32,000 nucleotides of DNA from Pyrobaculum islandicum DSM 4184 (GCF_000015205.1 NC_008701.1:777436-809435); one strand, 5' to 3'; positions 1 to 17,673 are shown, numbered from the stretch's first letter. Program-made: numbers and translations. Notes: generated by a model not told the origin, from the sequence alone.

Positions 1-674
1 TGGGCTCAGGAAAGACAACTCAGCTAAATCAACTTCTTTACTTAATTCCGCCGTGGTTTCAAGTGGTGGTAATAGAGAGAGGCGCCCGCGAGATTTGGGC
101 TCCGTTAGAAGGGCAGTTATTACATTTGTCTGTGCCAAACGAAGATAAGCTATGGGCGGCTTTAGACCAGGCTTTGAGATATGGCACTATACATACAATT
201 ATTGCGTTAGCCGAAGCTAGAACGCCGGCCGAACTAAAGACGTTGATTAATTATAAATTGACAGGCCACGGCGTTTTGACGACAATACACGCAGACACAG
301 TTAAAGACGCCGTGGTTCGTATTATAGAAGCTGAAGCTCCGCCTGAGGGTCTTGACGGCATATTAGTAATTCAACTGTCCGCAATAGCCGGCGCTAGATT
401 TGTAAAAGAGGCAAGGGCGGTGGCAGTAACCAAGGGGAGTGTTGAGGTAAGAGATGTTGCAGAGCTGACGCCTAAGATTTCGGCATATGTCAAAGAGATG
501 TATAAAACTGACTTAAAGAGCGAGCTTGCGTTGAGAGTAAAGGCTTTGTTAAAAGCGTCTGAAATAGACGATTTCCTTATTGCTAGAAAGACAATAGAGG
601 AGATGATATGGCTAAATCGTATTGATTTTAAAGCTTCGCTTTTTGAAGAGGCAAAACGTTTTGGCTATGTATAA
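1..674 (+). CDS. Secretion-superfamily ATPase (VirB11/FlaI/PilT-like), C-terminal part; 5' end lies outside the window
   Basis: The frame is open from nt 3. It reads GSGKTTQLNQLL (Walker A), ALRYGTIHTIIALAEAR (Walker B region, Glu retained) and TGHGVLTTIHA (His box). The Asp-box position reads VVVIERGAREI instead of IEDxxEL. Platform and pilin genes follow downstream. Confidence 0.75.
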   Translation, partial: GSGKTTQLNQLLYLIPPWFQVVVIERGAREIWAPLEGQLLHLSVPNEDKLWAALDQALRYGTIHTIIALAEARTPAELKTLINYKLTGHGVLTTIHADTVKDAVVRIIEAEAPPEGLDGILVIQLSAIAGARFVKEARAVAVTKGSVEVRDVAELTPKISAYVKEMYKTDLKSELALRVKALLKASEIDDFLIARKTIEEMIWLNRIDFKASLFEEAKRFGYV

Positions 675-684
675 ACTTTATCTC
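670..684 (+). promoter_or_regulatory. Stop-codon-embedded TATA-like box (gTATAAACTTTATC) for the 705 gene
   Basis: The TAA stop of the ATPase (672-674) lies inside an A/T box. The next ATG (705) is 33 nt after the T of that stop, the same geometry as five other junctions in this locus. Confidence 0.45.
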
Positions 685-704
685 GTAACTATACGGCGTG
701 ACAC

Positions 705-953
705 ATGATGTTAAAAAGAAAATCTTTGGCAGAAGCTATAGACTCTATTGTATATGGAGAAGGCGAAAATATAGAGACTAAAAGAGAGGAGAGTTGGCAA
801 GAATGTCTAGTCAAAGCGCTTGTAGAGATGCCTTCTGATATTGCAGATAAAGTCATATCGGCGCTACCGCCAGAAGTCTTGTTAAACATGTTGCAGAGCA
901 GAGAGGATCCATATATCAAACTAGCCCTACTCTTATTGAACAAGAGGAGATGA
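705..953 (+). CDS. Small soluble hypothetical protein (82 aa), pilus-like locus
   Basis: Same strand as the locus, promoter-like box 33 nt upstream, and an ATGA stop/start overlap with the next ORF at 950-953. The antisense ORF 689..943 is Ser/Leu-rich and was judged spurious. Confidence 0.5.
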   Translation: MMLKRKSLAEAIDSIVYGEGENIETKREESWQECLVKALVEMPSDIADKVISALPPEVLLNMLQSREDPYIKLALLLLNKRR

Positions 954-1282
954 TAGAAAAGAAAGCTATAAAGAAGGGGCTTACGGCTTCAACGGCCAGG
1001 TGGATATGTGAGTTGTCTAAAGAGCTAGGCGTAGATGAAAAACGATTTTTCAAAGCGGTATTAAAACTTGCAAAACATGGCATTTGGCTAGAGGAGGAAG
1101 ATTGGCGTATTATTGCCAAAGCGCTTGACTTATCGAAACATTTAGACATGGCTATAGACTATATCATACGTCGAGTGACATCAGGGGAGTCTCCTGAAAG
1201 AGTTGTGAAAGAAATGCCGAAGGCCGTAGAAAAGGCTGGAAAGCTAGCGCATATAAGAGAGGTGTTGTCAAATCTATTGTAA
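950..1282 (+). CDS. Small helical hypothetical protein (110 aa), possible helix-turn-helix
   Basis: Translationally coupled to the previous ORF (ATGA overlap). GLTASTARWICELSKELGVDEKRFFKAVLKL could be an HTH, but this is a guess from the sequence pattern only. Confidence 0.55.
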   Translation: MIEKKAIKKGLTASTARWICELSKELGVDEKRFFKAVLKLAKHGIWLEEEDWRIIAKALDLSKHLDMAIDYIIRRVTSGESPERVVKEMPKAVEKAGKLAHIREVLSNLL

Positions 1283-1295
1283 GTTTTTTCATCAC
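1280..1295 (+). promoter_or_regulatory. Stop-embedded promoter cassette TAAGTTTTTTCATCAC
   Basis: TAA stop at 1280-1282, a T6 run, and the next ATG at 1312 (32 nt after the stop T). Confidence 0.5.
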
Positions 1296-1311
1296 AAGCT
1301 TTGACACTTGT

Positions 1312-2508
1312 ATGCGTAGAGAAGATTTCTACATCTTGTCAGCGCCTATTTTTGCGACATATCTAGGCGCAGTCTCTGGTTCAGAAGCTTTAAAATATAC
1401 ATCTTTTAACGTAGCCGAACTTGATGAAAAAGAGTCGCGTCGGCTTTTCATATCCTCTCTAATGTCTTCGCCATCTTCTCTCTTTCTGGAGGATAAGGAG
1501 GATGTCGCTAGACAGGTTGGATACGCTTTAGCACAAGAAGAGGCTGGAGTAGACAGATCTACGATTGTACATTCGTTTTTAGAAAGCATGAAGGCGCTTG
1601 CGTCTTCAAAAATTGAGGCTAAAATGAGGTTGTATGAGTCTATCGCCTCTTCATTAGGTGCAGTATTCTTACTACCTCTTTTTCTTTTATTTCTCTGGGC
1701 AATAGGCATACTTGTCATAGATCCCCTCATCCTCTTGGCGTTAGTCTATGGCATAACTATGGCGTTGGGGACCATGGCGATTGTTATAACTCCGACAGAT
1801 TTAGACATATGGAAGACCTATGAATGGTCTATACCTTTAGGAATTGGTATTGCGACTATAGCCATGTTGTGGAATCTTCCCGTAGCTTTTCTAGCCTTTA
1901 GTTTAACAACATGGCTATGGCTAAAGATCAGAAATAGATTGTGGTGGTTTAACATAAGGAGGGAAGTTCCGCCGATGTTAAGATCTGTGGCCGCTATGCT
2001 TAAAGAGGGGGCGCCGCCTGAGCTTATATTAAGTAGACTAATGGGAGTTTTTAAAACAGCAGCCAAAATAGCATATGGCTATTATGTGCCTTCTCGTTAT
2101 TTTGTATTAGCTAAGGCGATGTATAAAGCCATAGTAGAGGCTGGGGGTTCAACAGCTATTAAATCAGTTGAATACATACAGTCGATAATTGACATAGAGA
2201 CTACATCTATTAGACGTATGGCAAGGCTATCTTCTGCATATTTCGCCTTATTTATTGTGGCAGTAATAATTCTCTCTATGGCTGTGTCATCTGCTGTAAA
2301 ACACTTGGCAAGTATAGACGTAAGTTACAACCCGTTTTTCCTCCCACCCCCCTACGACGAAGTAAGACAAGTATTGACAACTGCAATGTCTCTCATTGCC
2401 GCCAGCTACATCTCTGTGTTCTTACTGCCTCTTGGTATACACTATTCGACAATGTTGGGAGGCGCTGTAGGCGTCGTATTACAACATATCATAGCTCTCT
2501 TAATCTAA
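1312..2508 (+). CDS. Polytopic membrane platform protein, TadC/FlaJ/PilC-like
   Basis: 398 aa with two repeats of a cytoplasmic helical segment followed by hydrophobic helices. The second repeat begins RREVPPMLRSVAAMLKEGAPPELILSRL, which resembles the T2SF/TadC-domain signature. It sits next to the secretion ATPase, as in archaeal type IV pilus loci. Confidence 0.65.
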   Translation: MRREDFYILSAPIFATYLGAVSGSEALKYTSFNVAELDEKESRRLFISSLMSSPSSLFLEDKEDVARQVGYALAQEEAGVDRSTIVHSFLESMKALASSKIEAKMRLYESIASSLGAVFLLPLFLLFLWAIGILVIDPLILLALVYGITMALGTMAIVITPTDLDIWKTYEWSIPLGIGIATIAMLWNLPVAFLAFSLTTWLWLKIRNRLWWFNIRREVPPMLRSVAAMLKEGAPPELILSRLMGVFKTAAKIAYGYYVPSRYFVLAKAMYKAIVEAGGSTAIKSVEYIQSIIDIETTSIRRMARLSSAYFALFIVAVIILSMAVSSAVKHLASIDVSYNPFFLPPPYDEVRQVLTTAMSLIAASYISVFLLPLGIHYSTMLGGAVGVVLQHIIALLI

Positions 2509-2520
2509 AGTTTTTCCACT
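2505..2520 (+). promoter_or_regulatory. Stop-embedded promoter cassette CTAAAGTTTTTCCACT
   Basis: TAA stop at 2506-2508 and ATG at 2539 (33 nt). Nearly identical to the cassette at 2994-3009. Confidence 0.55.
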
Positions 2521-2538
2521 ATTGTCGCAAAGGTCTTT

Positions 2539-2997
2539 ATGCAAGCTAGAGGACTTACGACCGTTGAGTCTCTGCTTATCGCAGCCGCGTTTATAATCGT
2601 CGGCGTCATAGGCGTGTTGACATTTCAAGGTATAGGCAAATCTGCTGCCGAGTCGTTAAGAGCAAATGCCATTGTTACGGCAGACAGAGGGGGGTTTGAC
2701 GTAACAGTAGAAGTTCTTAACGGCAAAGTGTCTGCAGTATACGTTAGATATGGGCCCTCGGGCGGACAATTAAGCGCGCCTATCGTCGGCTCTTGTATTG
2801 TTGCACAAAACAGCCAAATACAAACAAATGTCCCCTCTACCAATTTGCTCCTAGTCGCAGGCCAATCGGCTACTTGTAGATTTACAGCTACGTTACAGTC
2901 AGGTGTCCAATATACATACGTGGTCTATGCAATAGATGCAAATAGCGGAAAATCTATCCAAATAGCTAAGGGAGTTGTAACAGTAGGAATATCCTAA
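2539..2997 (+). CDS. Type IV pilin-like protein with class III (prepilin) signal peptide
   Basis: The N-terminus MQARG/LTTVESLLIAAAFIIVGVIGVLTF has a short basic leader, Gly at -1, Glu at +5 and about 22 hydrophobic residues. The rest is beta-rich (152 aa). Confidence 0.75.
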   Translation: MQARGLTTVESLLIAAAFIIVGVIGVLTFQGIGKSAAESLRANAIVTADRGGFDVTVEVLNGKVSAVYVRYGPSGGQLSAPIVGSCIVAQNSQIQTNVPSTNLLLVAGQSATCRFTATLQSGVQYTYVVYAIDANSGKSIQIAKGVVTVGIS

Positions 2998-3009
2998 GGT
3001 TTTTCCACT
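2994..3009 (+). promoter_or_regulatory. Stop-embedded promoter cassette CTAAGGTTTTTCCACT
   Basis: TAA stop at 2995-2997 and ATG at 3028 (33 nt). Confidence 0.55.
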
Positions 3010-3027
3010 AACTTCCTCTCTTTTTTC

Positions 3028-3957
3028 ATGGACAAGATCTACATACTCTTGTTATTGACGGTAGCGACGTGGGGTCAGATAGTGAGTTGGCTTCCGCCTT
3101 ATGCACAATTAAGCCAAGCCTATGTTTACAACGCTACACACTTTCTAGTGTATTTAGATGGAGACACTATATATGTGACACAGATCGGCGTAGTTTTTAA
3201 TGGCACTAGCGCCGAGAGTAAAGCGGCTTATCAATACCTAATTGAACAGTGTAAATATATTGCTTTAGATGTAAGAAACGTCACTGCAAATGGAAAGCTA
3301 TGGCTAGCCGATGTCTATTGTTCTAAAGATGGCACTCTGTGGATGTGGCTAGGGTGGCTCCCACTGAGGTTTATGGCGTATAGAGGCTATGTCGAATTTA
3401 TGAATGCAGATAATATCACTGTTATAACGCCGGTTGGAACGTACGCCGGCTACATCCCGGCTGGGTGGTATTTAGATAGGAGGACGAAGACCGTTTTCAA
3501 ATTCCCCAGCTTCAACTTAACGTTAATTGAGGAGATATACAGACTTGACAAGATAATAGAGGAGATGAAAATACAACTTAGTCAATACTCAGTAAAATAT
3601 AACAAAACGAGTACTCTACTAGCTCAACTTGAGAACCAGATAGATGTATTAAGTATACAAAAACAAAAACTAGAGGAGTTGCTTAGACAGAGAGAAAACA
3701 TGGTAACAGCCCTATCTACAAATTTACAGATGTGTATTTCTGAAAATGAGATATTAAAGAGAAAATTGGCAGAACTAGAGGAGTTAAATAAAGCTCTTTC
3801 ATTAAAACTAACAAACTTAAGTAAAGCGTATCTTCAACTAAGTCAGAACACTCTAGAAAAACAAGAAGGGGGGAACTCCACAATCTATCTGCTTGTAATC
3901 GCGCTTACGGCAATAGTGATATTTCTCTTCATCTATAGGCGTCGTTTAGAGGGTTAA
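3028..3957 (+). CDS. Secreted, C-terminally anchored coiled-coil glycoprotein (309 aa)
   Basis: It has an N-terminal signal-like helix (IYILLLLTVATWG), an ectodomain of about 170 aa, and roughly 100 aa of heptad-rich sequence (LIEEIYRLDKIIEEMKIQL...LAELEELNKALSLKL). The C-terminus is a TM helix (IYLLVIALTAIVIFLFIY) followed by RRR. There are eight N-x-S/T sequons. Confidence 0.7.
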   Translation: MDKIYILLLLTVATWGQIVSWLPPYAQLSQAYVYNATHFLVYLDGDTIYVTQIGVVFNGTSAESKAAYQYLIEQCKYIALDVRNVTANGKLWLADVYCSKDGTLWMWLGWLPLRFMAYRGYVEFMNADNITVITPVGTYAGYIPAGWYLDRRTKTVFKFPSFNLTLIEEIYRLDKIIEEMKIQLSQYSVKYNKTSTLLAQLENQIDVLSIQKQKLEELLRQRENMVTALSTNLQMCISENEILKRKLAELEELNKALSLKLTNLSKAYLQLSQNTLEKQEGGNSTIYLLVIALTAIVIFLFIYRRRLEG

Positions 3958-3961
3958 GACT

Positions 3962-4399
3962 ATGGAAGATTTTATTGCCGCATACGTCTTTGTAATTGCC
4001 CTCTCTATATTAGTCGTGTATACGGCAGCGGTGCTAAAGCCGTTTATATTTACAAATGTCGTCGAAGTGCCAATAGCGCCGTCAAAAGAATTGCCGACGA
4101 GACATATCTACGTTTATAGCTCAGTCTCTGGACTATATGCGGTAGAGTATGAGGGGCTGGATGTAGAGGAATTTAGAAAAGCCATGGGTGTACCCGGCGC
4201 TCTAGTTGCAATATTTGAAGTATATCCTGGTGGATATCGTTGCGTAAATTATGCCAACTATACGGTTAAGCTTGGCCCAGACCCATATACGGGGCTTTGG
4301 TGTCCACCGCCTTTTAAAACAGAGACAAAGCCCTATTGTATACCAATAGGAATCACCTCACGCGGACGTTGGCTATTGGTACAATACCGTTGTCCATAA
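3962..4399 (+). CDS. Small N-terminally anchored protein (145 aa), pilin-like topology
   Basis: Single N-terminal hydrophobic helix FIAAYVFVIALSILVVYTAAV with no K/R-G cleavage motif. It starts 4 nt after the upstream stop and has one sequon (NYT). Confidence 0.6.
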   Translation: MEDFIAAYVFVIALSILVVYTAAVLKPFIFTNVVEVPIAPSKELPTRHIYVYSSVSGLYAVEYEGLDVEEFRKAMGVPGALVAIFEVYPGGYRCVNYANYTVKLGPDPYTGLWCPPPFKTETKPYCIPIGITSRGRWLLVQYRCP

Positions 4400-4400
4400 C

Positions 4401-4742
4401 ATGCATTTTGTAAGAGATGTCTTGGTTTTTGTAGGTCTTGCCGTCTTAACTACGGCAGTTATCTCGTCTCTCCTCCCTTTAAGAGAGGGCGTTGTTACAC
4501 TACCTGCCTGTTCTAGTTGTGAATTAAAGCTAAGGGGCGGGTATGTAATAGTTCAGGAGAATGACTCAGCTGTACTTTACTTAGGCACTAAAGCTGTTGT
4601 AAAATTTGGATGGGCTTATTACAGAGGAGAGCCTCTTGAAGTAGGACAAAAGATTGTGTGTGACCCAATGTATATCTATGTAGTGGGAGGAATTGTCTAC
4701 GTAAGTTGTGACGACGAAATGCCAAAGATAGGCAAGTGGTGA
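4401..4742 (+). CDS. Small N-terminally anchored protein (113 aa)
   Basis: N-terminal helix VLVFVGLAVLTTAVISSLL. It starts 1 nt after the upstream stop, in the same operon. Confidence 0.6.
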   Translation: MHFVRDVLVFVGLAVLTTAVISSLLPLREGVVTLPACSSCELKLRGGYVIVQENDSAVLYLGTKAVVKFGWAYYRGEPLEVGQKIVCDPMYIYVVGGIVYVSCDDEMPKIGKW

Positions 4743-4743
4743 T

Positions 4744-5427
4744 ATGTGGTCAACAGCTTTTGGAATAATTACGTCGGCTTTTGTGGTTTTTGCTATTGTA
4801 TATGCCACGCTACATGTGCCACATATATCTAATATAGATGTTATAGATCAACTATATAATGTAAAACTTTACCTCAATCAAAGCCTTAATTCATTAAATT
4901 ATACCCAAAATATAGAAATATTTAGAGAGTATGTAAATATTACAAGAGTTAGAGTAGTAAATATAACAGTTAGCTACAACGGGTCTGTTGTCAAATATCC
5001 ATTGTTGTTTCCACTTGGCCATAAGGTGTTAGGACGGGAGAGAAATGTGGTCTACCAACTATATGTAGATATCAAATGGTGTAGACCTACTCTCTTGCCA
5101 AGTGGCACATTGGCGTATCTGTACGAAATTAAAATAAGACATTCGATAGACATATTGCCTTGGCTAGAGACTAAGGCGCTTGTGCCAATTAGTGATAGTC
5201 TCTTCCGGCATTATTATGACGTGTGGAAATCTACTAACAAACCGCCTGTGTTAGGTCTCTCTCCGCCCCCAAATACGACATATGTTAGAGTAGCAAAGGC
5301 GTTAATTTACAGCACTAGAGAGGACGATGTAAAGCTCTACGTAGTAGCGCCATCTCCAGTGATATATATCATTGATTATCCGCTCGAACTCCCACTGGCT
5401 TGTCCCAACGCATTTTCCCAAAACTAA
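4744..5427 (+). CDS. N-terminally anchored glycoprotein (227 aa)
   Basis: N-terminal helix AFGIITSAFVVFAIVYATL and six N-x-S/T sequons (NQS, NYT, NIT x2, NGS, NTT). It starts 1 nt after the upstream stop. Confidence 0.6.
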   Translation: MWSTAFGIITSAFVVFAIVYATLHVPHISNIDVIDQLYNVKLYLNQSLNSLNYTQNIEIFREYVNITRVRVVNITVSYNGSVVKYPLLFPLGHKVLGRERNVVYQLYVDIKWCRPTLLPSGTLAYLYEIKIRHSIDILPWLETKALVPISDSLFRHYYDVWKSTNKPPVLGLSPPPNTTYVRVAKALIYSTREDDVKLYVVAPSPVIYIIDYPLELPLACPNAFSQN

Positions 5428-5440
5428 AGTTTTTCCTATC
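5424..5440 (+). promoter_or_regulatory. Stop-embedded promoter cassette CTAAAGTTTTTCCTATC
   Basis: TAA stop at 5425-5427 and ATG at 5457 (32 nt). This supports 5457 rather than 5400 as the true start of the large ORF. Confidence 0.55.
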
Positions 5441-5456
5441 TTCGATATTGTTTACT

Positions 5457-8456
5457 ATGCGTATTGTAATATTACTACTCCTCTCTATATTAGTATATTC
5501 GCAAGTTGTAACTTCTGTAACATGTAAGAAAGAGTTTGAATTTCAACTAGACACTTCCTCAGTTGTTACAATTTCTTTTTCATTTAGTGCGTTAGCTCCG
5601 CTTGGAATGGGAGGTCAGACTGTAGTTTTTACAGAGGGTCAACAATGGGTTGAAGTATGGGGAGAGAGGTTTCTCAACTTATCTAAGTTATTAGTCGCAT
5701 CTACTGCCACATCTGGACTATGGGATAGAGATCTGACCTACTCTCTCACTCTAGAATACTTTAAGCCGGGAGACAGTTGGGTTATTGGAGAGTACTTCTG
5801 TAAAGCTAGGTATGACAACGGCTTGGAGGTTATACAGATTTACTACAAGGTAGAGAAAGAGCCGGCGCGTGAAGTTAGACAAATATCATTCGTCGTGTTG
5901 CAGACACAAGTTCTATATAGAACAGAGGAGAGAATTTATGTCTCTCTACGCCCAGATGTCTACTACTCATGGCTTACGTCCCTTTGTAAAGAACTGCCAG
6001 ACAGTCTGACGTGGCCCCGGTGTACGCCCTACACGAGGGATAACTACGTAGTCAGCGCCTCCTCGCCTAGGGTTTGGAAGGCGTTAGAAATAAATAGTAA
6101 GAAGCCTGGCGAGATAGTCGTATTGAGAAATGTCTACGCCGTTGTTCCAAACCCGTGGCTGTATGGAGAGTGTTATCTAGGGAGATGCTCAGCGTCTATA
6201 TCTACAGACAGGGGGATTGTTGTCTATATAGGCGATGTATATAACATACCGTTTTCTAAGAGAGTAGACATCTCTATAATTGCAGCGCCTATTGGATGGG
6301 GCGAAATTGAGGTTAGGCCGCCGAGACAAATTCCGCTGTATGTCTCACGTGTAGTACAAATGGGGGGTTTTTCATGCAGACCGCCCGACTGCTTTGTAGT
6401 AGATGAAGTTGGCAATGCAACATGGATAGGCAAAAATTGGGTTTGGAACTGGACGTTGGCGTCTATCGCAGTTAAAACGCCGCACATCTTGGTGCCATAT
6501 GTAGCCGTGGGACTTGTCCAAGATGGACAATATTCTGCGATAGGTAGAGGCGTGTCGGTGTATATGCCTTTAGGCTCAGTCGCCGTTTTAAAAACTACAG
6601 TATTATGGCGTTTAGAGATGGGAAATAAGTCTGTTTGGATAGGCTCAACTCCTGGCACATACCTCCGCGTAGTAGATGATAGAGGCAATATCGTAGATTA
6701 TGAAGAAGCTGCCTCGCGTGGCAAATTAGAATATCGTGTGACGAATATGCCGCTTTCCAATACCAAATGGGCTGTCTTTGAGACTGCTGTAGATGAGACA
6801 TTTCGGAAAGTCTATACTGCATGGTATTCGCCACCAAATCCATGTAGCCAATGGCCTAGGCAGTTGCTCAACTGTGTACACCTACAACATGTATATACAA
6901 AAGTAAATGGCACTTTCCTAAGTTACACCAGGGTCGGGACAACAAATAAATGGCCGGTCACACACCTAGCGCTTATCGATTGGCTAATTCCAAAAATCCC
7001 ACGTATATGCGGACGTGACAGGTTTAGCGACTTTATGAGCTTAGTTGTAGGAGATCCAGCTCTGTACTTCTGGCATACATACCGACTTAGGACTTACGAA
7101 TTTAACCCGTCGACTGGTGATTGGGATATACCAAGAGAGTGTGAGTACCCACCGCCGCATCAAGTATCTATGTTAAGTTCAGTTTACAACACGGCCTCCT
7201 ACCGTAACACAACACGTGGATTTGAGAAGTTGTACTTCGAAACAGCTGAAGGAAACGGTACATTTTACAACTATGTTTTTGAAGGCGTAAATGGGTATGA
7301 ATACCCGGCGGGCTGGACCGACGTGTTGCCACTGGGGATACCGTCTATGACAACAAATACGACAAGTCCCTGGCTTGTGTTTCTAGTGCCAACTACGGCG
7401 TGCAGATCTATCATATGTACAAGCCTAGATGTAACTCTCTGGGGGCCTACGCCGGGGCCTACTCCAGATCTAGCTCTCCCTGGTGCTGGTTACTCTTTTC
7501 TAATTATATATACAGGCACTATTAAAAATATAACTATACGTATATTTATAGAAAAAGGATTTGTAGCATATATACAGAAAGGTGTGATATATAAACCAGT
7601 GGAAAACTATATGTTAACAGAGGTTAAAAAACTCTGGAAACCCTTGGACGGCGTATACGTAGGTCCAGGCTGGTGGACAGAGTATAAACCTCTTGTTTCA
7701 TGTCAATACTTATCGTTAGGTGAAAAGTCGATATATGTCACTCCAACAGATTGGGCGGGTCCCCTGATCTTGACGATTGAGGAGTTTTCAGAGGGCGCGT
7801 CTAAACGCTATAGTTACGTCTTCTTCATTTCTAACAACGTCTCGTATAGAATAGACGTAACTTCGACAACGCCGCAAAACTTCACCACGTTATACCTCAA
7901 CGTGTCGTTATCGCTATACGTAAACAGAATTCCCTATTTCCACGGCTATGTTGTAATAGGAGAGGGAGGGAGAGTCAGGCCATATATTTGTAAAACTGTA
8001 GATATATTGTCACATTCGTTTTTTGGCGGCGTTGGACAAACTTCGCAACTTACAACAAATGGTGAATTCTGGGGAGAAGTTGATATAGTGGACAGAATTA
8101 GGTTAGTCGATAAATTTGTTATACCGAGCTTTGAAATAGTATATTTTTCAAGAGGAGTTGTAAAAATAAACGCAGAGGGACCTGTCATAGGTTTTGCGTT
8201 CTACTTAATGCGTAATGGTATATGGACAAAAGTAGGAGAGGCGCTGGGGTCGTGCGTATTAATTAACGCTACTTTAATATATCCCTGGGATCCACTACTC
8301 GTATTGCCTATAGTTAAATACCACATAGAGGCACGGGCTGGAGATGTTGTAGTGCTATGGCGTCCAAAACCGTCGCTTTTCTTTAAAACTTGGGCTGACT
8401 CAATGGGATATTCTATTGGCGTGTCTAGTACATTAGAAGTACTAGGCAAATGTTAA
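5457..8456 (+). CDS. Large secreted glycoprotein (~999 aa), candidate tip adhesin or surface component
   Basis: It starts MRIVILLLLSILVYSQVVTS (signal peptide) and has no other TM segment. By eye it is beta-rich and rich in Cys, Trp and Tyr. At least 12 N-x-S/T sequons are present (NLS, NAT, NWT, NKS, NGT, NTT, NIT, NVS, NFT and others). I recognise no family motif. Confidence 0.7.
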   Translation: MRIVILLLLSILVYSQVVTSVTCKKEFEFQLDTSSVVTISFSFSALAPLGMGGQTVVFTEGQQWVEVWGERFLNLSKLLVASTATSGLWDRDLTYSLTLEYFKPGDSWVIGEYFCKARYDNGLEVIQIYYKVEKEPAREVRQISFVVLQTQVLYRTEERIYVSLRPDVYYSWLTSLCKELPDSLTWPRCTPYTRDNYVVSASSPRVWKALEINSKKPGEIVVLRNVYAVVPNPWLYGECYLGRCSASISTDRGIVVYIGDVYNIPFSKRVDISIIAAPIGWGEIEVRPPRQIPLYVSRVVQMGGFSCRPPDCFVVDEVGNATWIGKNWVWNWTLASIAVKTPHILVPYVAVGLVQDGQYSAIGRGVSVYMPLGSVAVLKTTVLWRLEMGNKSVWIGSTPGTYLRVVDDRGNIVDYEEAASRGKLEYRVTNMPLSNTKWAVFETAVDETFRKVYTAWYSPPNPCSQWPRQLLNCVHLQHVYTKVNGTFLSYTRVGTTNKWPVTHLALIDWLIPKIPRICGRDRFSDFMSLVVGDPALYFWHTYRLRTYEFNPSTGDWDIPRECEYPPPHQVSMLSSVYNTASYRNTTRGFEKLYFETAEGNGTFYNYVFEGVNGYEYPAGWTDVLPLGIPSMTTNTTSPWLVFLVPTTACRSIICTSLDVTLWGPTPGPTPDLALPGAGYSFLIIYTGTIKNITIRIFIEKGFVAYIQKGVIYKPVENYMLTEVKKLWKPLDGVYVGPGWWTEYKPLVSCQYLSLGEKSIYVTPTDWAGPLILTIEEFSEGASKRYSYVFFISNNVSYRIDVTSTTPQNFTTLYLNVSLSLYVNRIPYFHGYVVIGEGGRVRPYICKTVDILSHSFFGGVGQTSQLTTNGEFWGEVDIVDRIRLVDKFVIPSFEIVYFSRGVVKINAEGPVIGFAFYLMRNGIWTKVGEALGSCVLINATLIYPWDPLLVLPIVKYHIEARAGDVVVLWRPKPSLFFKTWADSMGYSIGVSSTLEVLGKC

Positions 8457-8950
8457 CGCTTAGGTATTTACTATCGCTTATAGCAGCTGTATTAGCCACA
8501 GCTATTGTGTCTCTTGTGGCGGCGTATGCGCTACAACATGCAGACCCCTTGATAAAGAGCGTTGCAACGTCGTTGGCAAGCGGGAAGTCTGCCAAGTCGG
8601 AAATTCCTATTTCGCTACGTAAATATAAGGTGGACTATACATATAGTGAAGGCCGCTGGGTTTTAACAAATAGAGGCGGCATACCGCTCTATGCAGTTGG
8701 CGTAGGCGTATGTCCAGACTCTATAAATGTCTTCTTTAACAAAACTTACAGCTCTACTAATAACACAGTACATATATCTAAGTGTTCTATTATCTTGCCG
8801 TCTATCGAAATGATACATAACTCAGTTGTATTTACACATGTAGTACCTCTCTGTCTCACAGGCACAGATTTTAAGACAGAGGTTGTAGAACAGAAATACA
8901 TCTATGCGAATTTCACAATTAGGGTCAGAGCCGTTGTGGTAAATTGCTAA
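8450..8950 (+). CDS. N-terminally anchored glycoprotein (166 aa)
   Basis: N-terminal helix YLLSLIAAVLATAIVSLVAAYAL. It overlaps the large ORF by 7 nt (ATGTTAA) and carries the sequons NKT, NNT and NFT. Confidence 0.6.
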   Translation: MLTLRYLLSLIAAVLATAIVSLVAAYALQHADPLIKSVATSLASGKSAKSEIPISLRKYKVDYTYSEGRWVLTNRGGIPLYAVGVGVCPDSINVFFNKTYSSTNNTVHISKCSIILPSIEMIHNSVVFTHVVPLCLTGTDFKTEVVEQKYIYANFTIRVRAVVVNC

Positions 8951-8963
8951 AGTTTTTCCCGAG
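8947..8963 (+). promoter_or_regulatory. Stop-embedded promoter cassette CTAAAGTTTTTCCCGAG
   Basis: TAA stop at 8948-8950 and ATG at 8980 (32 nt). This supports 8980 rather than 8944 as the start. Confidence 0.55.
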
Positions 8964-8979
8964 AGATAGAGACGGCTAT

Positions 8980-9249
8980 ATGCGGCTTGAATTAGCGTTA
9001 ATCCCTATCATATTTGCCTTGGCAACGGCCGCTCTGACATTTCTAAAACCTGTAGAATTTCACTCAATAGACTTGACATCGATATTTGTCTACTGGCCGG
9101 AGTCTCTATACTATGCAGAGAGGGGAGATCCAACAGCTATATATCGTATTACAGGGCTTGTTACATGTCTCTCTAAAGGCGTAATCGAGGCGCCTCCCGG
9201 CATTTCCTTTAAAGTACTCAAGCTTATCTGCCGCTTTAACACATGGTAG
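8980..9249 (+). CDS. Small N-terminally anchored protein (~89 aa)
   Basis: It starts MRLELALIPIIFALATAALTFL, 32 nt after the cassette. Confidence 0.55.
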   Translation: MRLELALIPIIFALATAALTFLKPVEFHSIDLTSIFVYWPESLYYAERGDPTAIYRITGLVTCLSKGVIEAPPGISFKVLKLICRFNTW

Positions 9250-9542
9250 AAGATATTCTAGAGGTTATAGCAGTTAACACTCTTGCCCTATTTACTCTAG
9301 CAATATTTTTAACACTCTATACATACTCTACGCCTAACGTATGTCAAGTAGCTGAGACAGTGTTAAAATTTCCCGGTTCTGAAATTCACGTCTATGGGCG
9401 TTTTAAGGTGTGGAACGATACAAAACACGTCTATTTATCGTGCGGCTTGGCGTTGTCTCGAGATAAAGTTCTCCAGATAAACAGAACAGAAGGCTTACTA
9501 AGAATAGGTAGTACGGCAGAAGGTAAGTTATATATATCTTAG
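9243..9542 (+). CDS. Small N-terminally anchored protein (99 aa), last gene of the locus
   Basis: N-terminal helix VIAVNTLALFTLAIFLTLYTY. It overlaps the previous ORF (ATGGTAG) and carries the sequons NDT and NRT. Confidence 0.55.
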   Translation: MVEDILEVIAVNTLALFTLAIFLTLYTYSTPNVCQVAETVLKFPGSEIHVYGRFKVWNDTKHVYLSCGLALSRDKVLQINRTEGLLRIGSTAEGKLYIS

Positions 9543-12870: not shown

Positions 12871-15243
12871 TTACTCTGCAACTCTAGAACTTTCCTCCTT
12901 AGTCACCATATATAGTCTTGCGTTTGGAACCGCGTCTTTTATCACATCTGCAAAATCGCCAGACTGTGTAGCTACTACGATCTGATAACGTGAAGAAAGA
13001 GATCTAACTAATTCTGCGAAAGCTCTCCTGATATTTACATCAACATATGGAATAGGTTCGTCAAATATTATAAAGCCAATTTGTATATTGGATATTTCCC
13101 TAAGCGCGAGAGCTAGGGCTAGAGCTATCGAAAGTCTTTGTCCATCGCTTAGCTTTGAAATACCGTATCTCTCGCCAGTGGGAGATATCGCATAGAAGTC
13201 GTAGTAGCCCTTACGTTGTTCTAGATCTACATTTACTTTTGAAATATCGCCATATCTATAGAGCGTTAGAAATACTTCGTTAAAGCGAGATTTTGCAATC
13301 TCCACTAACCGAGCTCTCGCGTTGACTTTGACAAGTTCAAACTTTGCCTTAACTTCTTGTAGCTTGCTATAGGCATAAAGCGTGTTATCTAGTGCCTTTT
13401 TCAAATTTTCCGCATCTCCCCCCACTTCTCTTACAATCTCTTCTAATACAGCCTTCTCTCTGTATAATTCTGCTAAACGGCTAGAAGTTCTCTCTAGCTC
13501 TTCGGTAATCTCCCTCCAGCGCATTTCCACATCTAAGATTTCTCTAACGACGCCGGCTTTGTTTAACATTTCCTCAAGCTCTTTAAGGCGGCGTTTTAGC
13601 TCTCGAACTCTAAGCATCTTTCCATATTTAGAAAGCGCATCTAAAATCGTGCGTTTGTCAACCCTAGTTATCAAAGAGTGTAATTTTTCAACACGTCTCT
13701 CTAGTTGTTTAAGTGCTTTTTCAGCCTGTATCATTTTCTTAATGATTTCTTCTCTCTCAAGTTTTAACTCCTCTAGTCTATTCTTTGTGGATAAATACTC
13801 TGCAACCTCGCCGCTTAATATTTCCATTTCGTCTACAGCTTTTTCATACTCTCTAATCCTCTCCTTTAGATTTTCTACTTCGTGTATTAACTCGCCAAAT
13901 TTGCTCTCTACCTCTCTAGCTATGTTTAACGCAACCTCCCGACTTATGGGAGAGCCGCATATAGGACATCTATTGACGCCTATTTCCGCAATATAGAGAG
14001 ATACCGTCTTAAGAGCCGAAATATATGCCATAGATTTCTCAGTTTCTTCGAGCCTCCTCTTCAACTCGTTGAGGGCAGCTTTAGCCGTTTCTAGAGATTG
14101 AAACGACTTCTGAAGCTCTTTAAACCGTATATATGACCTTTCAAGTCTCCTCAGTTTAGTCTCAACTTCTTTAATTTCGTCTTCAAGCTTCTTCACCCTA
14201 GCTAGATACTGTTCGTATGTCTTTCGTACTTCAGAAATCTGACTCTCTAAATCTTTTGATAATCTAACAAGGGCCTCATAAGCTTCAACCATGGCAGCCG
14301 ATAAAGATTCTAGGTCTCTAGTTGTGAGTTTTTCAAGAAGCTCATGCCCCAGTATATGTTCATACTCCTCTAAGGCCTCTTGCAGAGCGTCTCTAATTTT
14401 CTCAACGGCGTCTAAACCAACATCTTCGCCTGTAGTTGATTCCAAGATCTCTAATTCAGATCTCGTTTTGTAATACTCCAATAAAATGTTCTCGTTCTCT
14501 CTGATTTTCTCCAAATAGCCGGCTCTTCTCTTGGCTAACTCTTCTACTGTTTTAGTAAGATTTACCTCGCGCTCTTTTAACGCCGCCAGCTCACCTTCTA
14601 TAGTCTCTAACCTAGTTACAACGCCTTTATAGCCACCATATTTCTTAATTATATCTCTATATTTTTCATATGTAGAAAGTCTTTTTCTCAAATTTTCGGC
14701 TTTCTCCAACAGATATTTCTCTATAGATGACACAACTCTTAAAATGTTGTCAATTATGTCAATACCAAATAGACGGTCTACTGAAAGCGTTCTCTTTTGT
14801 GCTGTGCCGTATATAAAACCCTCTAGAGTCCTATGCGAAATATATACAAGTCGTTCATATATGTCTTCGTCGGCTCCTATGAGTTCAACTAGTCTTTCTT
14901 CAGCATCTCTATCTCTTAGTTTAATGCCGTTATAAAGTACAACAAGCTTCTCAGATCCCCGCCGCCCTAGTCTTCTTTCTATACGAAGTTTGTCGTTGCC
15001 TCTGCGTAATTCTAGCGCTACATTGGCTTCCTGAGCGTCTACATTAATCAGATCTACAAGTTTTGCTACTCTCTCTCTTACCTCAAGCTGTTTTCCAAAG
15101 AGGGCATATTCTATGGCATATAGGAGAGAGGTCTTCCCAGCCCCGATTCTTCCCAATAAAATTGTAACATCCCCTAGGCTTACCTCATGTCTCCCCTTGT
15201 ATGACCTGAAATTTTCTAGTTCAATCTTTTCTATCCTCCACAT
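12871..15243 (-). CDS. rkd-4: SMC/Rad50-like coiled-coil ATPase, arcadin-4 of the crenactin cluster
   Basis: 790 aa with Walker A GRIGAGKTS. A long heptad coiled coil is interrupted mid-way by RCPICGS (a CxxC hook). It also has the signature LSDGQRLSIALALALAL and Walker B FIIFDEP. It is the last gene of the crenactin operon and has no Mre11/HerA/NurA neighbours. Confidence 0.8.
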   Translation of the reverse strand: MWRIEKIELENFRSYKGRHEVSLGDVTILLGRIGAGKTSLLYAIEYALFGKQLEVRERVAKLVDLINVDAQEANVALELRRGNDKLRIERRLGRRGSEKLVVLYNGIKLRDRDAEERLVELIGADEDIYERLVYISHRTLEGFIYGTAQKRTLSVDRLFGIDIIDNILRVVSSIEKYLLEKAENLRKRLSTYEKYRDIIKKYGGYKGVVTRLETIEGELAALKEREVNLTKTVEELAKRRAGYLEKIRENENILLEYYKTRSELEILESTTGEDVGLDAVEKIRDALQEALEEYEHILGHELLEKLTTRDLESLSAAMVEAYEALVRLSKDLESQISEVRKTYEQYLARVKKLEDEIKEVETKLRRLERSYIRFKELQKSFQSLETAKAALNELKRRLEETEKSMAYISALKTVSLYIAEIGVNRCPICGSPISREVALNIAREVESKFGELIHEVENLKERIREYEKAVDEMEILSGEVAEYLSTKNRLEELKLEREEIIKKMIQAEKALKQLERRVEKLHSLITRVDKRTILDALSKYGKMLRVRELKRRLKELEEMLNKAGVVREILDVEMRWREITEELERTSSRLAELYREKAVLEEIVREVGGDAENLKKALDNTLYAYSKLQEVKAKFELVKVNARARLVEIAKSRFNEVFLTLYRYGDISKVNVDLEQRKGYYDFYAISPTGERYGISKLSDGQRLSIALALALALREISNIQIGFIIFDEPIPYVDVNIRRAFAELVRSLSSRYQIVVATQSGDFADVIKDAVPNARLYMVTKEESSRVAE

Positions 15244-15433
15244 CGATGCCTAATCTCCTGAGATATTCTACTAACGTGTTTTTAGCAGCTTTTACGCCGC
15301 CCTGCCTATACGCAACTATTAGAGACTCCGCAAGTCTCCCCTCTTCTGTATTTCCAAATACTCTTCTAACTTCTTCAAGCAGTACATCCACAGTATATAA
15401 TGCTATAAAGACACTTATATTATTAACTCCCAC
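15221..15433 (-). CDS. rkd-3: Small protein (70 aa) in the arcadin-3 position of the crenactin cluster
   Basis: It overlaps both neighbours (11 nt upstream, 23 nt downstream) on the same strand. The assignment is by position only; I do not recall the reference sequence. Confidence 0.45.
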   Translation of the reverse strand: MGVNNISVFIALYTVDVLLEEVRRVFGNTEEGRLAESLIVAYRQGGVKAAKNTLVEYLRRLGIDVEDRKD

Positions 15434-16016: not shown

Positions 16017-16018
16017 AC

Positions 16019-17326
<1,308 letters not shown>

Positions 17327-17331
17327 CTATT

Positions 17332-17673
17332 TTAACTTTCTGGCTTTATCCTAATTTCCCCACCCTCTATAATTATTAAAACTATATCGCCGACATCAAC
17401 ATCTCCAAACATCTCAGCTTCATCATCTGCTAACCACAGCGTAACTCTCGGGACAGCAATTTTACCTCCGCCAAACGGGAGTGATCGCACTATCTGCGTT
17501 ACAAGAGGCATGACCTCTCGCATCAACTGCGCCGTTTGTTCGTCTTGTGTGGAAAAAGCCGCAACAGGCCCTGGTAGTTCTTTCTCTTCTATAATATCGA
17601 TTTTTATATACCTTGCACCAGTGGGGTCATAGACAAGTTGTTTAGAAATAACTACGCCCTTAATTGTGGCCAT
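17332..17673 (-). CDS. rkd-1: Arcadin-1-like protein (113 aa)
   Basis: First gene of the cluster, immediately upstream of crenactin. GAAAGTTTTTATATA promoter box about 31-36 nt upstream of its ATG. Confidence 0.6.

What the first reader, a model, noticed from the sequence alone, without database searches (positions are those of the whole stretch)
1..9542. Uncharacterised type IV pilus-like surface-filament locus (ATPase, platform, one true prepilin, nine further secreted or anchored proteins)
Thirteen co-directional genes are tightly packed or overlapping. The locus begins with a VirB11/FlaI-like ATPase (cut by the window edge), two small soluble proteins and a TadC/FlaJ-like platform protein. 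Only one protein has a textbook class III signal peptide (MQARG/LTTVE...). The remaining genes encode a tail-anchored coiled-coil ectoprotein, seven small proteins with a single N-terminal helix, and a signal-peptide protein of about 999 aa. Nearly all predicted ectodomains carry N-x-S/T sequons, as expected for crenarchaeal surface proteins. The core resembles archaeal T4P machinery. However, I recognise none of the accessory genes as archaellum (FlaB/F/G/H), Aap, Ups or bindosome components, and no domain signature is visible in about 6 kb of coding sequence. This is the most likely undescribed system in the window: an adhesion filament, or another extracellular assembly built on a T4P motor.
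Basis: partly seen in the sequence, partly recalled or inferred. Interest (0 to 1): 0.8.

Follow-up and report, generated by a model that had tools for sequence, protein, structure and literature searches.

The report
Catalogued Pyrobaculum type IV pilus-like locus
This is a real, tightly packed gene cluster for a type IV pilus-like surface filament in the hyperthermophile Pyrobaculum islandicum. A 2016 census of archaeal pili already described it gene by gene as "subclade 4G", so it is not a new system, although nobody has yet shown what it does.

Summary
Window 1..9542 carries 13 co-directional genes, Pisl_0868 to Pisl_0880 of Pyrobaculum islandicum DSM 4184. They encode:
- a T2SSE-family ATPase, cut at its Walker A motif by the window edge;
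- two small cytoplasmic proteins;
- a 398-aa polytopic protein;
- one pilin with a textbook class III signal peptide (MQARG|LTTVE);
- a protein with a signal peptide, a coiled coil and a C-terminal anchor;
- six (not seven) small proteins with one N-terminal hydrophobic helix;
- a 999-aa all-beta secreted protein.

The locus continues upstream of the window with three cytoplasmic proteins and a MinD/FleN-like ATPase. Gene order is conserved across Pyrobaculum.

The claim that it is undescribed does not hold. P. islandicum was in their data set.

It remains experimentally uncharacterised. I found no paper naming these genes and no solved structure. The two solved Pyrobaculum type IV pili come from other genes.

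New details from this work:
- Conserved TAAnnTTTTTC elements lie 29-31 nt before six start codons.
- N-glycosylation sequons are strongly enriched in the exported proteins but not in the major pilin.
- Several pilin-like N-termini have no leader peptide.
- I could not verify the TadC assignment.

The parts
1..674 (+). C-terminal 223 codons of the secretion ATPase (Pisl_0868 by accession order, arCOG05609). The window begins at Walker A, GSGKTT.
   Evidence: PF00437 T2SSE E=4e-7. The full-length 510-aa copy in L002 is 100% identical over the overlap and scores T2SSE E=9.6e-12. Its best PDB relatives are A. fulgidus GspE 2OAP (6.5e-10), FlaI 4II7 and CpaF.
672..704 (+). Stop codon plus a 30-nt spacer carrying the variant element TAAACTTTATC.
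   Evidence: The equivalent P. neutrophilum spacer carries TAACCTTTTTC.
705..953 (+). g02, an 82-aa small cytoplasmic protein (arCOG07479 by position).
   Evidence: No hydrophobic segment, no sequons and no Pfam hit. Conserved at this position in Pyrobaculum loci. Makarova describes it as a small alpha-helical cytoplasmic protein.
950..1282 (+). g03, a 110-aa small cytoplasmic protein (arCOG05610, ABL88046).
   Evidence: 58-71% identical across loci. Its profile gives only weak HTH-like PDB matches (sigma-28, E=0.068).
1280..1311 (+). Stop codon plus a 29-nt spacer with TAAGTTTTTTC.
1312..2508 (+). g04, a 398-aa polytopic membrane protein (Pisl_0871, arCOG05611, 'diverged TadC'). Presumed platform.
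   Evidence: It follows the ATPase in every locus, directly so in the distant relative L018. The AF2 model is all-alpha (pLDDT 69.7), and a hydropathy scan finds at least five strongly hydrophobic segments. T2SSF homology was not confirmed.
2506..2538 (+). Stop codon plus a 30-nt spacer with TAAAGTTTTTCC.
2539..2997 (+). g05, a 152-aa prepilin and the predicted major pilin (Pisl_0872, arCOG05612).
   Evidence: [KR]G|[LM]T[TS][VI]E followed by about 20 hydrophobic residues is conserved in 11 orthologues that have leaders of varying length. 57-74% identity. No PDB sequence relative.
2995..3027 (+). Stop codon plus a 30-nt spacer with TAAGGTTTTTCC.
3028..3957 (+). g06, a 309-aa type I membrane protein: Sec signal, glycosylated head, a coiled coil of about 110 aa, and a C-terminal TM followed by RRR (Pisl_0873, arCOG05613).
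   Evidence: Coiled-coil families match residues 165-280 weakly, and there are 8 sequons. The motif VSW.PP.A is conserved just after the signal peptide. A homologue sits next to the TadC-like gene and the pilin in the distant relative L018.
3962..4399 (+). g07, a 145-aa pilin-like protein that starts MED followed by a hydrophobic helix, with 4 conserved Cys (Pisl_0874, arCOG05614).
   Evidence: The P. oguniense orthologues can start upstream, which would give the leader ...LRG|VED.
4401..4742 (+). g08, a 113-aa protein with an N-terminal helix and 4 conserved Cys (Pisl_0875).
   Evidence: Orthologues range from 106 to 373 aa because of C-terminal extensions.
4744..5427 (+). g09, a 227-aa protein with an N-terminal helix and 6 sequons (Pisl_0876).
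   Evidence: It is among the most divergent components (31-48% identity).
5425..5456 (+). Stop codon plus a 29-nt spacer with TAAAGTTTTTCC.
5457..8456 (+). g10, a 999-aa secreted all-beta multidomain protein with 13 sequons, 12 conserved Cys and a conserved C-terminal Cys (Pisl_0877, arCOG05616).
   Evidence: 100% identical to the P. islandicum protein P0121. Sec-type signal peptide. AF2 pLDDT 74.3, almost all strands. Only weak Ig-like, adhesin or S-layer matches in the PDB.
8450..8950 (+). g11, a 166-aa protein with an N-terminal helix and 4 conserved Cys. It overlaps g10 by 7 nt (Pisl_0878).
8948..8979 (+). Stop codon plus a 29-nt spacer with TAAAGTTTTTCC.
8980..9249 (+). g12, an 89-aa protein that starts MRLE followed by a hydrophobic helix, with 2 conserved Cys (Pisl_0879, arCOG05618).
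   Evidence: The TTG at 8944 lies inside the conserved spacer element and is not the start.
9243..9542 (+). g13, a 99-aa protein that starts MVED followed by a hydrophobic helix, with 2 conserved Cys. It is the last gene of the locus (Pisl_0880, arCOG05619).
   Evidence: The downstream flank differs between P. islandicum and P. neutrophilum.

Best explanation
This is the P. islandicum copy of the Pyrobaculum/Thermoproteus 'subclade 4G' type IV pilus-like system. It is an 18-gene locus, and the window holds the last 13 genes.

Shown:
- a T2SSE-family ATPase;
- an adjacent polytopic membrane protein;
- one prepilin with a conserved class III signal peptide;
- eight further proteins with export signals or N-terminal hydrophobic helices, seven of which carry N-glycosylation sequons;
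- strict conservation of gene order across the genus;
- a MinD/FleN-like ATPase and three more cytoplasmic proteins upstream of the window.

Inferred mechanism:
- A PibD-type prepilin peptidase encoded elsewhere removes MQARG from g05.
- The ATPase hexamer, docked on g04, lifts mature g05 out of the membrane and polymerises it into a filament.
- g07, g08, g09, g11, g12 and g13 insert through their N-terminal helices. They act as minor pilins or as a base or tip complex. Four of them have a conserved acidic residue 2-6 positions from an uncleaved N-terminus, which mimics Glu5 of a mature pilin.
- The Sec-exported 999-aa beta-rich g10 is displayed as an adhesin, probably together with g11, whose gene overlaps it.
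- g06 is a stalk anchored in the membrane. Its coiled coil spans the wide space beneath the S-layer and holds or guides the machine.
- The MinD/FleN-like ATPase sets the number or position of machines.
- Conserved TAAnnTTTTTC elements 29-31 nt before six start codons act as internal promoters for leaderless mRNAs, as oligo-T terminators, or as both. This would let the pilin be expressed independently of the other genes.

The most likely role is adhesion or cell-surface interaction.
For: Identity of the locus:
- The window proteins are 100% identical to P. islandicum DSM 4184 proteins.
- Synteny is gene for gene with P. neutrophilum and eight other Pyrobaculum loci.
- Gene lengths and order match the P. 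calidifontis arCOG list in Makarova 2016. The text description matches, and the P. islandicum ATPase is in their 4G clade.

ATPase:
- T2SSE Pfam hit, with closest PDB relatives afGspE, FlaI and CpaF.

Pilin:
- The RG|LTTVE motif is conserved.

Export of the accessory proteins:
- Sequon density averaged over orthologues is 0.7-2.1 per 100 aa, against 0-0.14 for the cytoplasmic and membrane components.
- The exported proteins diverge faster (30-66% identity) than the ATPase, the MinD-like protein, the TadC-like protein and the pilin (53-83%).
- g07 has a class III-like leader in P. oguniense.

Core module:
- ATPase, TadC-like gene, g06-like gene and pilin also occur together in a distant relative.

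Spacer elements:
- 5 exact matches against 0.61 expected, all at gene boundaries.
- Conserved at the same boundaries in other species.
- They resemble the A/T-rich boxes at about -30 of other genes in the window.
- Pyrobaculum mRNAs are leaderless (abstract of PMC2151090).
Against: - The platform assignment is unverified. There is no Pfam T2SSF hit for any family member.
- A profile search of 1.84 billion representatives found only 10 proteins, and the five full-length ones scanned have no T2SSF hit.
- Foldseek against the PDB gave nothing.
- hhalign against a 114-sequence T2SSF profile gives colinear alignments, but they are not significant (P 0.02-0.12).
- No profile similarity links the small proteins to the pilin or to each other, and I could not model their structures.
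- No prepilin peptidase gene lies in the window.
- No filament made of g05 has been seen. The two solved Pyrobaculum T4P are built from other pilins.
- The roles given to g06, g10, the MinD-like protein and the spacers are inference only.
Confidence: 0.75

Rival explanations
1. The machine is a short pseudopilus or assembly system that works like a type II secretion system or the Sulfolobus bindosome. The T4P motor and the pilin-like proteins would not build a long pilus. They would push or organise g10, g06 and other glycoproteins into the cell envelope or through the S-layer.
For: The ratio of accessory exported proteins to pilins is unusually high: eight to one. A large Sec-exported protein with no anchor of its own lies inside the operon. 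No filament of g05 has been reported, although Pyrobaculum filaments have been surveyed by cryo-EM several times. Makarova called the large proteins S-layer-like or adhesin-like.
Against: g05 has the conserved sequence and size of a filament-forming archaeal pilin and is highly conserved (57-74%). NCBIfam scores the ATPase fragment far below the bindosome BasE cut-off (20 bits against 1000). No secreted substrate is known.
Confidence: 0.12
2. The locus encodes the unidentified motility organelle of Pyrobaculum. This would be a rotating or retracting filament that takes the place of the missing archaellum. The MinD/FleN-like ATPase and the five extra cytoplasmic proteins would act as motor or switch parts, and the membrane-anchored small proteins as stator-like elements.
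For: Motility has been reported for P. aerophilum and P. calidifontis, yet they lack arl/fla genes. Reviews state that the responsible structure is unknown (clade_3 = 0 for all Pyrobaculum). This is the most complex T4P-like locus in these genomes. It carries a FlhG/FleN-type ATPase. It is present in P. aerophilum, P. calidifontis and P. islandicum.
Against: No homologues of the FlaH, FlaX, FlaCDE, FlaF or FlaG families were detected. The ATPase is not in the FlaI clade (21.9 bits against a cut-off of 550; clade 4G). Kreutzberger et al. saw no supercoiled filaments on about 300 P. calidifontis cells and favour twitching or gliding. The locus is also present in Thermoproteus species. There is no second, retraction ATPase in the locus.
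Confidence: 0.08
3. The cluster is not one machine. A T4P core (ATPase, g04, g05) merely sits next to unrelated envelope glycoprotein genes.
For: Internal promoter-like elements could uncouple the gene groups. No sequence similarity ties the small proteins to pilins. One related MAG (L003) has different genes after the pilin.
Against: Order, spacing and overlaps of all 13 genes are conserved in nine Pyrobaculum loci, while the flanking genes differ. P. oguniense duplicated most of the block, from the MinD-like gene through g13. The g06-like gene stays with the core in a distant relative.
Confidence: 0.05

Closest known systems
T4P subclade 4G of Pyrobaculum/Thermoproteus (Makarova, Koonin and Albers 2016, Front Microbiol 7:667; arCOG05605-05619, 07478, 07479)
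   Same: It is the same system. The gene order and lengths match, and the set of components is the same: a FleN-like ATPase, a diverged ATPase, two small alpha-helical cytoplasmic proteins, a diverged TadC, a PilA-family major pilin, a large protein with a C-terminal TM, a large secreted protein, and several Cys-rich predicted minor pilins. The P. islandicum genome was part of their data set.
   Different: Nothing differs at the level of the system. That description is purely computational. This work adds the spacer elements, the sequon contrast, the leaderless N-termini, the AF2 models, and the failure to verify TadC homology.
Bacterial Tad/Flp pilus (TadZ/CpaE, TadA/CpaF, TadB/TadC, Flp, TadE/TadF)
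   Same: Both have a MinD/ParA-like ATPase next to a CpaF/FlaI-type ATPase, a membrane platform, one small major pilin and several pilin-like accessory proteins. CpaF is among the best PDB relatives of the ATPase.
   Different: This locus has no secretin or outer-membrane parts, which is expected for an archaeon. Its pilin is larger and has a beta domain. No peptidase is encoded in the locus. The platform is not recognisably T2SSF. The accessory proteins are unrelated in sequence.
Sulfolobales Aap and Ups pili, bindosome and archaellum
   Same: They share the T4P-type ATPase, platform and class III pilin logic, and dependence on a PibD peptidase encoded elsewhere (established knowledge).
   Different: NCBIfam scores of the ATPase fragment are far below the FlaI (21.9 against 550) and BasE (20 against 1000) cut-offs. 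No FlaH, FlaX, FlaF, FlaG, AapX or UpsX families were detected. The ATPase lies in a different clade in the ATPase tree.
Solved Pyrobaculum filaments: P. arsenaticum T4P (6W8U), P. calidifontis flagellar-like T4P (8FK7), bundling pili and Ted conjugation pili
   Same: Same genus. Two of them are T4P with class III pilins that are glycosylated and disulfide-bonded.
   Different: They come from different genes and loci. Neither g05 nor g07-g13 has a PDB sequence match, even at E<=10. The 8FK7 locus lies elsewhere in the P. calidifontis genome and carries a KaiC-like gene. P. arsenaticum DSM 13514 is not in the 4G ATPase group.
SlaB, the S-layer stalk protein of Sulfolobales (comparison for g06 only, recalled from the literature and not tested)
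   Same: The architecture is the same: Sec signal, glycosylated extracellular domain, long coiled coil, C-terminal TM anchor.
   Different: I found no sequence similarity. g06 is shorter and is encoded inside a T4P locus. Its oligomeric state is unknown.

Membership tests
Type IV filament (T4P-like) system | Secretion ATPase of the T2SSE/VirB11/FlaI family with Walker A and His box | tested here: met
   PF00437 E=4e-7 on the fragment and 9.6e-12 on the full length. PDB relatives are afGspE 6.5e-10, FlaI 6.6e-7 and CpaF 4e-5. GSGKTT and LTGHGVLTTIHA are visible in the sequence.
Type IV filament (T4P-like) system | Polytopic platform protein of the T2SSF (TadC/PilC/FlaJ) family | tested here: inconclusive
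   A polytopic 398-aa protein follows the ATPase in every locus. No PF00482 hit in any family member. HMMER profile search found no link. Foldseek against the PDB found nothing. hhalign against a 114-sequence T2SSF domain profile is colinear over residues 214-332 and 58-115, but only at P 0.02-0.12, against 0.3-0.6 for a reversed-template control. Makarova 2016 calls it a diverged TadC.
Type IV filament (T4P-like) system | Pilin with a class III signal peptide: short basic leader, Gly at -1, Glu at +5, hydrophobic helix | tested here: met
   In g05, MQARG|LTTVESLLIAAAFIIVGVIGVL is conserved in 11 orthologues whose leaders vary in length.
Type IV filament (T4P-like) system | Prepilin peptidase (A24 family, PibD/FlaK) | not testable with these tools
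   None in the 32-kb window or in the Pfam annotation of the P. neutrophilum locus. Crenarchaeal pibD is normally unlinked. The whole genome was not available to scan.
Makarova subclade 4G locus (arCOG05605-05619) | Gene content and order: FleN-like ATPase, ATPase, two small cytoplasmic proteins, TadC-like, pilin, C-terminal-TM protein, predicted pilins, large secreted protein, predicted pilins | tested here: met
   The lengths 234/510/82/110/398/152/309/145/113/227/999/166/89/99 can be compared with the P. calidifontis entries listed: 234/-/-/112/398/148/318/159/-/-/979/-/88/100. All 18 genes are colinear in nine Pyrobaculum loci.
Makarova subclade 4G locus (arCOG05605-05619) | ATPase belongs to the arCOG05609 clade | tested here: met
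   The P. islandicum ATPase GI 119872380 groups with the P. calidifontis, P. aerophilum and Thermoproteus 4G ATPases in the published tree. The window ATPase is 69-74% identical to the ATPases of the syntenic loci. That this GI is the window gene is inferred, not checked.
Archaellum (arl/fla) | FlaI equivalog, FlaJ, FlaH (KaiC-like), FlaF/FlaG and archaellins | tested here: not met
   NCBIfam FlaI scores 21.9 bits against a cut-off of 550. No FlaH, FlaF, FlaG or archaellin families appear in any gene of the locus. Makarova Table S3 lists no clade-3 ATPase in P. islandicum.
Sulfolobus bindosome | BasE-type ATPase | tested here: not met
   NF053672 BasE scores 20 bits against a cut-off of 1000.
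Structurally solved Pyrobaculum T4P (6W8U, 8FK7) | Pilin sequence related to the solved pilin | tested here: not met
   phmmer of g05, and of g07-g13 concatenated, against all PDB chains gave no pilin hit at E<=10.

The most novel reading that the evidence does not exclude
The subclade 4G machine is the long-sought motility apparatus of Pyrobaculum. Motility has been reported for species such as P. aerophilum and P. calidifontis, yet they have no archaellum genes, and reviews say the responsible structure has not been identified. The locus carries a FlhG/FleN-like ATPase, five extra cytoplasmic proteins and a set of uncleaved, membrane-anchored pilin-like proteins. Together these could form a motor and stator that evolved independently of FlaH, FlaX, FlaF and FlaG.
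Probability: 0.08. Interest if true: 0.85.

Novelty: already known. Interest (0 to 1): 0.3.

Why it matters
As a discovery it adds little. The system and the predicted role of each gene were published in 2016, and this exact genome was in that census.

It still marks a real gap. The most elaborate T4P-like machine of the Thermoproteales has no known filament, structure, phenotype or verified platform protein. The host genus has unexplained reports of motility and an unusually wide space beneath its S-layer.

Three details found here give concrete starting points for experiments:
- internal promoter/terminator-like punctuation between gene groups;
- a major pilin almost free of glycosylation sites, set among heavily sequon-rich partners;
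- pilin-like proteins that begin where a processed pilin would begin.

Tried and rejected
- **Pfam and NCBIfam scans of all 13 proteins and the 5 upstream ones.** Only T2SSE and CbiA/MinD hit; everything else was empty.
- **T2SSF membership of g04.**
  - Per-member Pfam at E<=10 gave nothing.
  - An exhaustive HMMER profile search found only 10 proteins, and the five full-length ones scanned lack T2SSF.
  - A profile search against PDB sequences gave nothing.
  - The AF2 model searched with Foldseek against the PDB gave nothing.
  - hhalign against haloarchaeal and Chlorobium T2SSF was not significant.
  - A deep 114-sequence T2SSF profile gave nothing with hmmsearch and only marginal hhalign P-values.
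  - An internal-repeat test was not significant.
- **Fold of g10.** The AF2 model is confident in two large beta-rich regions, but Foldseek against the PDB returned only generic Ig-like, adhesin or S-layer matches with TM<0.1.
- **Hypothesis that the solved P. arsenaticum or P. calidifontis pili come from this locus.** Rejected. There are no PDB hits, the locus coordinates and content differ, and the leader length differs.
- **Hypothesis that the small proteins are paralogues of the pilin.** No hhalign support.
- **tblastn of the ATPase against plasmids.** No hit at 1e-5, and only weak hits to haloarchaeal and CpaF ATPases at E<=1.
- **Profiles of g03, u1 and u2 against the PDB.** Nothing significant.
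- **Literature search by locus tag.** No papers.
- **Phenotype table for Pyrobaculum motility.** The paper is not held and the search was uninformative.

Full report
**What is there.** Window 1..9542 holds 13 co-directional + strand ORFs. Their lengths equal the GenBank calls for Pyrobaculum islandicum DSM 4184. The 999-aa protein is 100% identical to a P. islandicum protein. Ten of the others are found as exact sequences under accessions ABL88046-ABL88056, and one of them is named Pisl_0876. By accession order the window therefore carries Pisl_0868 (cut) to Pisl_0880. GenBank calls all of them 'conserved hypothetical'.

Junctions between genes fall into two classes. One class is overlaps or gaps of 1-4 nt. 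The other is spacers of 29-30 nt.

**The motor.** The first ORF begins at the Walker A motif GSGKTT and matches PF00437 T2SSE. A Logan contig (L002) is 98-100% identical to the window gene by gene and supplies the full 510-aa ATPase. That protein scores T2SSE E=9.6e-12. Its closest solved relatives are A. fulgidus GspE (2OAP), FlaI and CpaF. It is a divergent member of the family. NCBIfam scores of the window fragment are far below the FlaI and BasE cut-offs, and tblastn against 72,556 plasmids finds nothing at 1e-5.

**The locus is bigger than the window and is conserved.** The P. neutrophilum genome (L001) and L002 show four more genes directly upstream: 219, 198 and 99 aa with no Pfam hit, and a 234-aa CbiA/MinD-like ATPase. 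A scan of species-representative genomes returned ten loci. In nine Pyrobaculum loci essentially all 18 genes are colinear. One locus lacks a detectable g06, and one of the two P. oguniense copies lacks the three upstream genes. P. oguniense therefore has two copies of most of the block.

The components differ in how well they are conserved:
- MinD-like, ATPase, TadC-like and pilin: 53-83% identity.
- g03: 58-71%.
- g02: 36-64%.
- The other exported proteins: 30-66%.

The flanks differ between P. islandicum and P. neutrophilum, so the block behaves as a unit that ends at g13.

**It is already described.** Makarova, Koonin and Albers (2016, PMC4858521) describe T4P 'subclade 4G' of the Pyrobaculum-Thermoproteus group. 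Their list of components is:
- a distinct diverged ATPase (arCOG05609);
- a diverged TadC (arCOG05611);
- a single recognisable PilA-family major pilin (arCOG05612);
- two large proteins, one with a C-terminal TM ('S-layer-like') and one with a signal peptide ('adhesin or minor pilin');
- diverse small predicted minor pilins rich in conserved cysteines;
- a FleN/MinD ATPase (arCOG05608);
- two small alpha-helical intracellular proteins specific to this group.

Their supplementary tables list the P. calidifontis genes with lengths 234, 112, 398, 148, 318, 159, 979, 88 and 100 aa, in consecutive GI order. These match the window genes one for one. Their ATPase tree places the P. islandicum protein GI 119872380 with the P. 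calidifontis and P. aerophilum 4G ATPases on a very long branch, sister to Vulcanisaeta and Caldivirga.

**It is not experimentally characterised.** No paper in the library names Pisl_0868-0877. Neither the pilin nor the six small proteins has any sequence relative in the PDB, even at E<=10.

The solved P. arsenaticum pilus (6W8U, gene HC235_07175) has a 7-residue leader. The g05 orthologue in the closely related P. oguniense has an 11-residue leader. P. arsenaticum DSM 13514 is absent from the 4G ATPase group. The P. calidifontis 'flagellar-like' pilus (8FK7) is encoded at NC_009073:1259287-1264747, in a 5.5-kb locus with a KaiC-like gene. That is a different system.

**The platform protein is the weak point.** g04 always follows the ATPase, and does so directly in a distant metagenomic relative. 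A hydropathy scan finds at least five strongly hydrophobic segments. The AF2 model is all-helical (pLDDT 69.7). However, no test linked it to T2SSF:
- Pfam is silent for every family member, even at E<=10.
- A profile search of 1.84 billion representatives finds only ten proteins.
- Sequence and fold searches against the PDB are empty.
- I built a 114-sequence T2SSF domain profile from bona fide FlaJ, TadC and PilC proteins. With it, hmmsearch finds nothing.
- hhalign aligns residues 214-332 colinearly to the whole domain and residues 58-115 to its first third, at P of about 0.02-0.12. A reversed-template control gives P 0.3-0.6.

This is suggestive, not proof. I score membership as inconclusive and rely on gene context and on the 2016 assignment.

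**The exported proteins.**
- *g05* has the only textbook class III signal. The pattern is a basic residue, then Gly, then the cleavage site, then L/M-T-T/S-V/I-E and about 20 hydrophobic residues. It is conserved in eleven orthologues.
- *g06 and g10* have Sec-type signal peptides.
- *g06* also has about 110 residues that match coiled-coil families weakly, and a C-terminal TM followed by RRR. A g06-like gene accompanies the ATPase, the TadC-like gene and the pilin in a distant relative, so it belongs to the conserved core. Its architecture recalls the S-layer stalk SlaB. That comparison is from memory and was not tested.
- *g10* models as an almost purely beta, multidomain protein (pLDDT 74.3). 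It has only generic Ig-like, adhesin or S-layer matches. Its last residue is a conserved Cys, and its gene overlaps g11 by 7 nt.
- *The six small proteins* each have one N-terminal hydrophobic helix and two or four conserved cysteines.

Sequon density averaged over orthologues separates the two groups sharply. It is 0-0.14 per 100 aa for the cytoplasmic and membrane components and 0.7-2.1 for g06-g13. The major pilin has essentially none.

The small proteins show no profile similarity to the pilin or to each other. 'Pilin-like' therefore rests on their N-termini alone. Four of them have a conserved acidic residue 2-6 positions from the initiator Met: MED (g07), MxED (g13), MRxE (g12) and MxxxRD (g08). 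This is roughly the position of Glu5 in a processed pilin. In P. oguniense the g07 reading frame extends upstream to an ATG and encodes ...LRG|VEDV, a class III-like leader. In P. islandicum a stop codon 4 nt upstream forces the start at MED. I read these as pilin-like proteins that mostly lack a leader. This is inference.

g08 carries C-terminal extensions of up to 260 aa in other species. That is typical of modular tip or adhesin subunits.

**Punctuation.** Six spacers of 29-30 nt each begin with TAAnnTTTTTC(C) immediately at the stop codon. There are five exact matches in the window against 0.61 expected. All are on the + strand and all lie at boundaries of this cluster. The element sits at the same boundaries in P. 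neutrophilum, a much more GC-rich genome, and in other species. Other genes in the window carry similar A/T-rich boxes at about -30 to -22, and Pyrobaculum mRNAs are reported to be leaderless (abstract of PMC2151090).

The simplest reading is that these are internal BRE/TATA-like promoters placing the transcription start at the ATG. The T-run may double as a terminator. That would split the locus into units [..ATPase][g02-g03][g04][g05][g06-g09][g10-g11][g12-g13]. This has not been tested.

**Mechanism and rivals.** The best-supported model is a T4P-like filament of g05. It would be assembled by the ATPase on g04, with accessory pilin-like proteins, an adhesin-like g10, a periplasm-spanning g06 and a MinD-like positioning ATPase. 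Its probable role is adhesion (confidence 0.75 for the identity and the general mechanism, lower for the individual roles).

The rivals are:
- a non-filamentous pseudopilus or assembly machine (0.12);
- the unidentified motility organelle of Pyrobaculum (0.08);
- a chance juxtaposition of a T4P core with unrelated envelope genes (0.05).

The motility reading rests on reports of motility in P. aerophilum and P. calidifontis without arl genes.

**Verdict.** The novelty claim is refuted by a prior computational description of this very locus. Interest is modest (0.3). It comes from the fact that the system remains a functional blank and from the few new anatomical details found here.

Noticed in passing
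window 12871..17673 (- strand): A crenactin cytoskeleton cluster. It holds arcadin-1 (17332..17673, PF18653 E=1e-42), crenactin (16019..17308, Actin E=3.5e-8), a 197-aa protein with no Pfam hit (15423..16016, possibly arcadin-2) and a 790-aa SMC/Rad50-like ATPase (12871..15243, possibly arcadin-4). This is a known Thermoproteales feature.
   Followed up: partly
window 1280, 2506, 2995, 5425, 8948 (variant at 672); L001 9366, 9969, 11195, 11685, 14067, 17567: The element TAAnnTTTTTC(C) starts at the stop codon and lies 29-31 nt before the next ATG. There are 5 matches against 0.61 expected, and the element is conserved across species at the same gene boundaries. It is probably an internal promoter for leaderless mRNAs, an oligo-T terminator, or both.
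   Followed up: partly
L005 and L007 (Pyrobaculum oguniense TE7, CP003316.1 around 488-509 kb and 615-636 kb): There are two paralogous copies of the locus in one genome. One copy (L005) lacks the three upstream cytoplasmic genes. In both copies g07 can be read from an upstream ATG, which gives a class III-like leader ...LRG|VED.
   Followed up: partly
L011 12822..13979 (Pyrobaculum sp. WP30); L004, L005, L007 and L011 g08 orthologues: WP30 has an extra 385-aa gene between g06 and g07 that carries the g06-like W.PPHA motif, so it is probably a g06 paralogue. g08 grows from 113 aa to 263-373 aa in four loci.
   Followed up: no
L003 11738..16307 (Thermoproteaceae MAG JAJHRB010000019.1): The ATPase, the TadC-like gene (67% identity) and the pilin are conserved. 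About 4.5 kb of different genes then follow before a g06-like start at the contig end. This may be a variant accessory set.
   Followed up: no
L018 (ENA metagenome contig, GC 66%): A distant relative (TadC-like protein about 25% identical) has the order ATPase, TadC-like, g06-like, pilin. It lacks the two small cytoplasmic genes, and g05 and g06 are swapped.
   Followed up: partly
window 28632..28756 (+) and 29597..29694 (-): Two tRNA matches in Rfam. ARAGORN calls only the second one (tRNA-Thr GGT). The first spans 125 nt and scores just above the Rfam threshold, so it may be an intron-containing tRNA. A tRNA-intron endonuclease gene lies at 19764..20315.
   Followed up: no
window 2539..2997: The predicted major pilin has no N-x-S/T sequon, and its orthologues have almost none (0.06 per 100 aa). 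Every other exported protein family of the locus is sequon-rich. Both solved Pyrobaculum pilins carry an N-glycan.
   Followed up: partly
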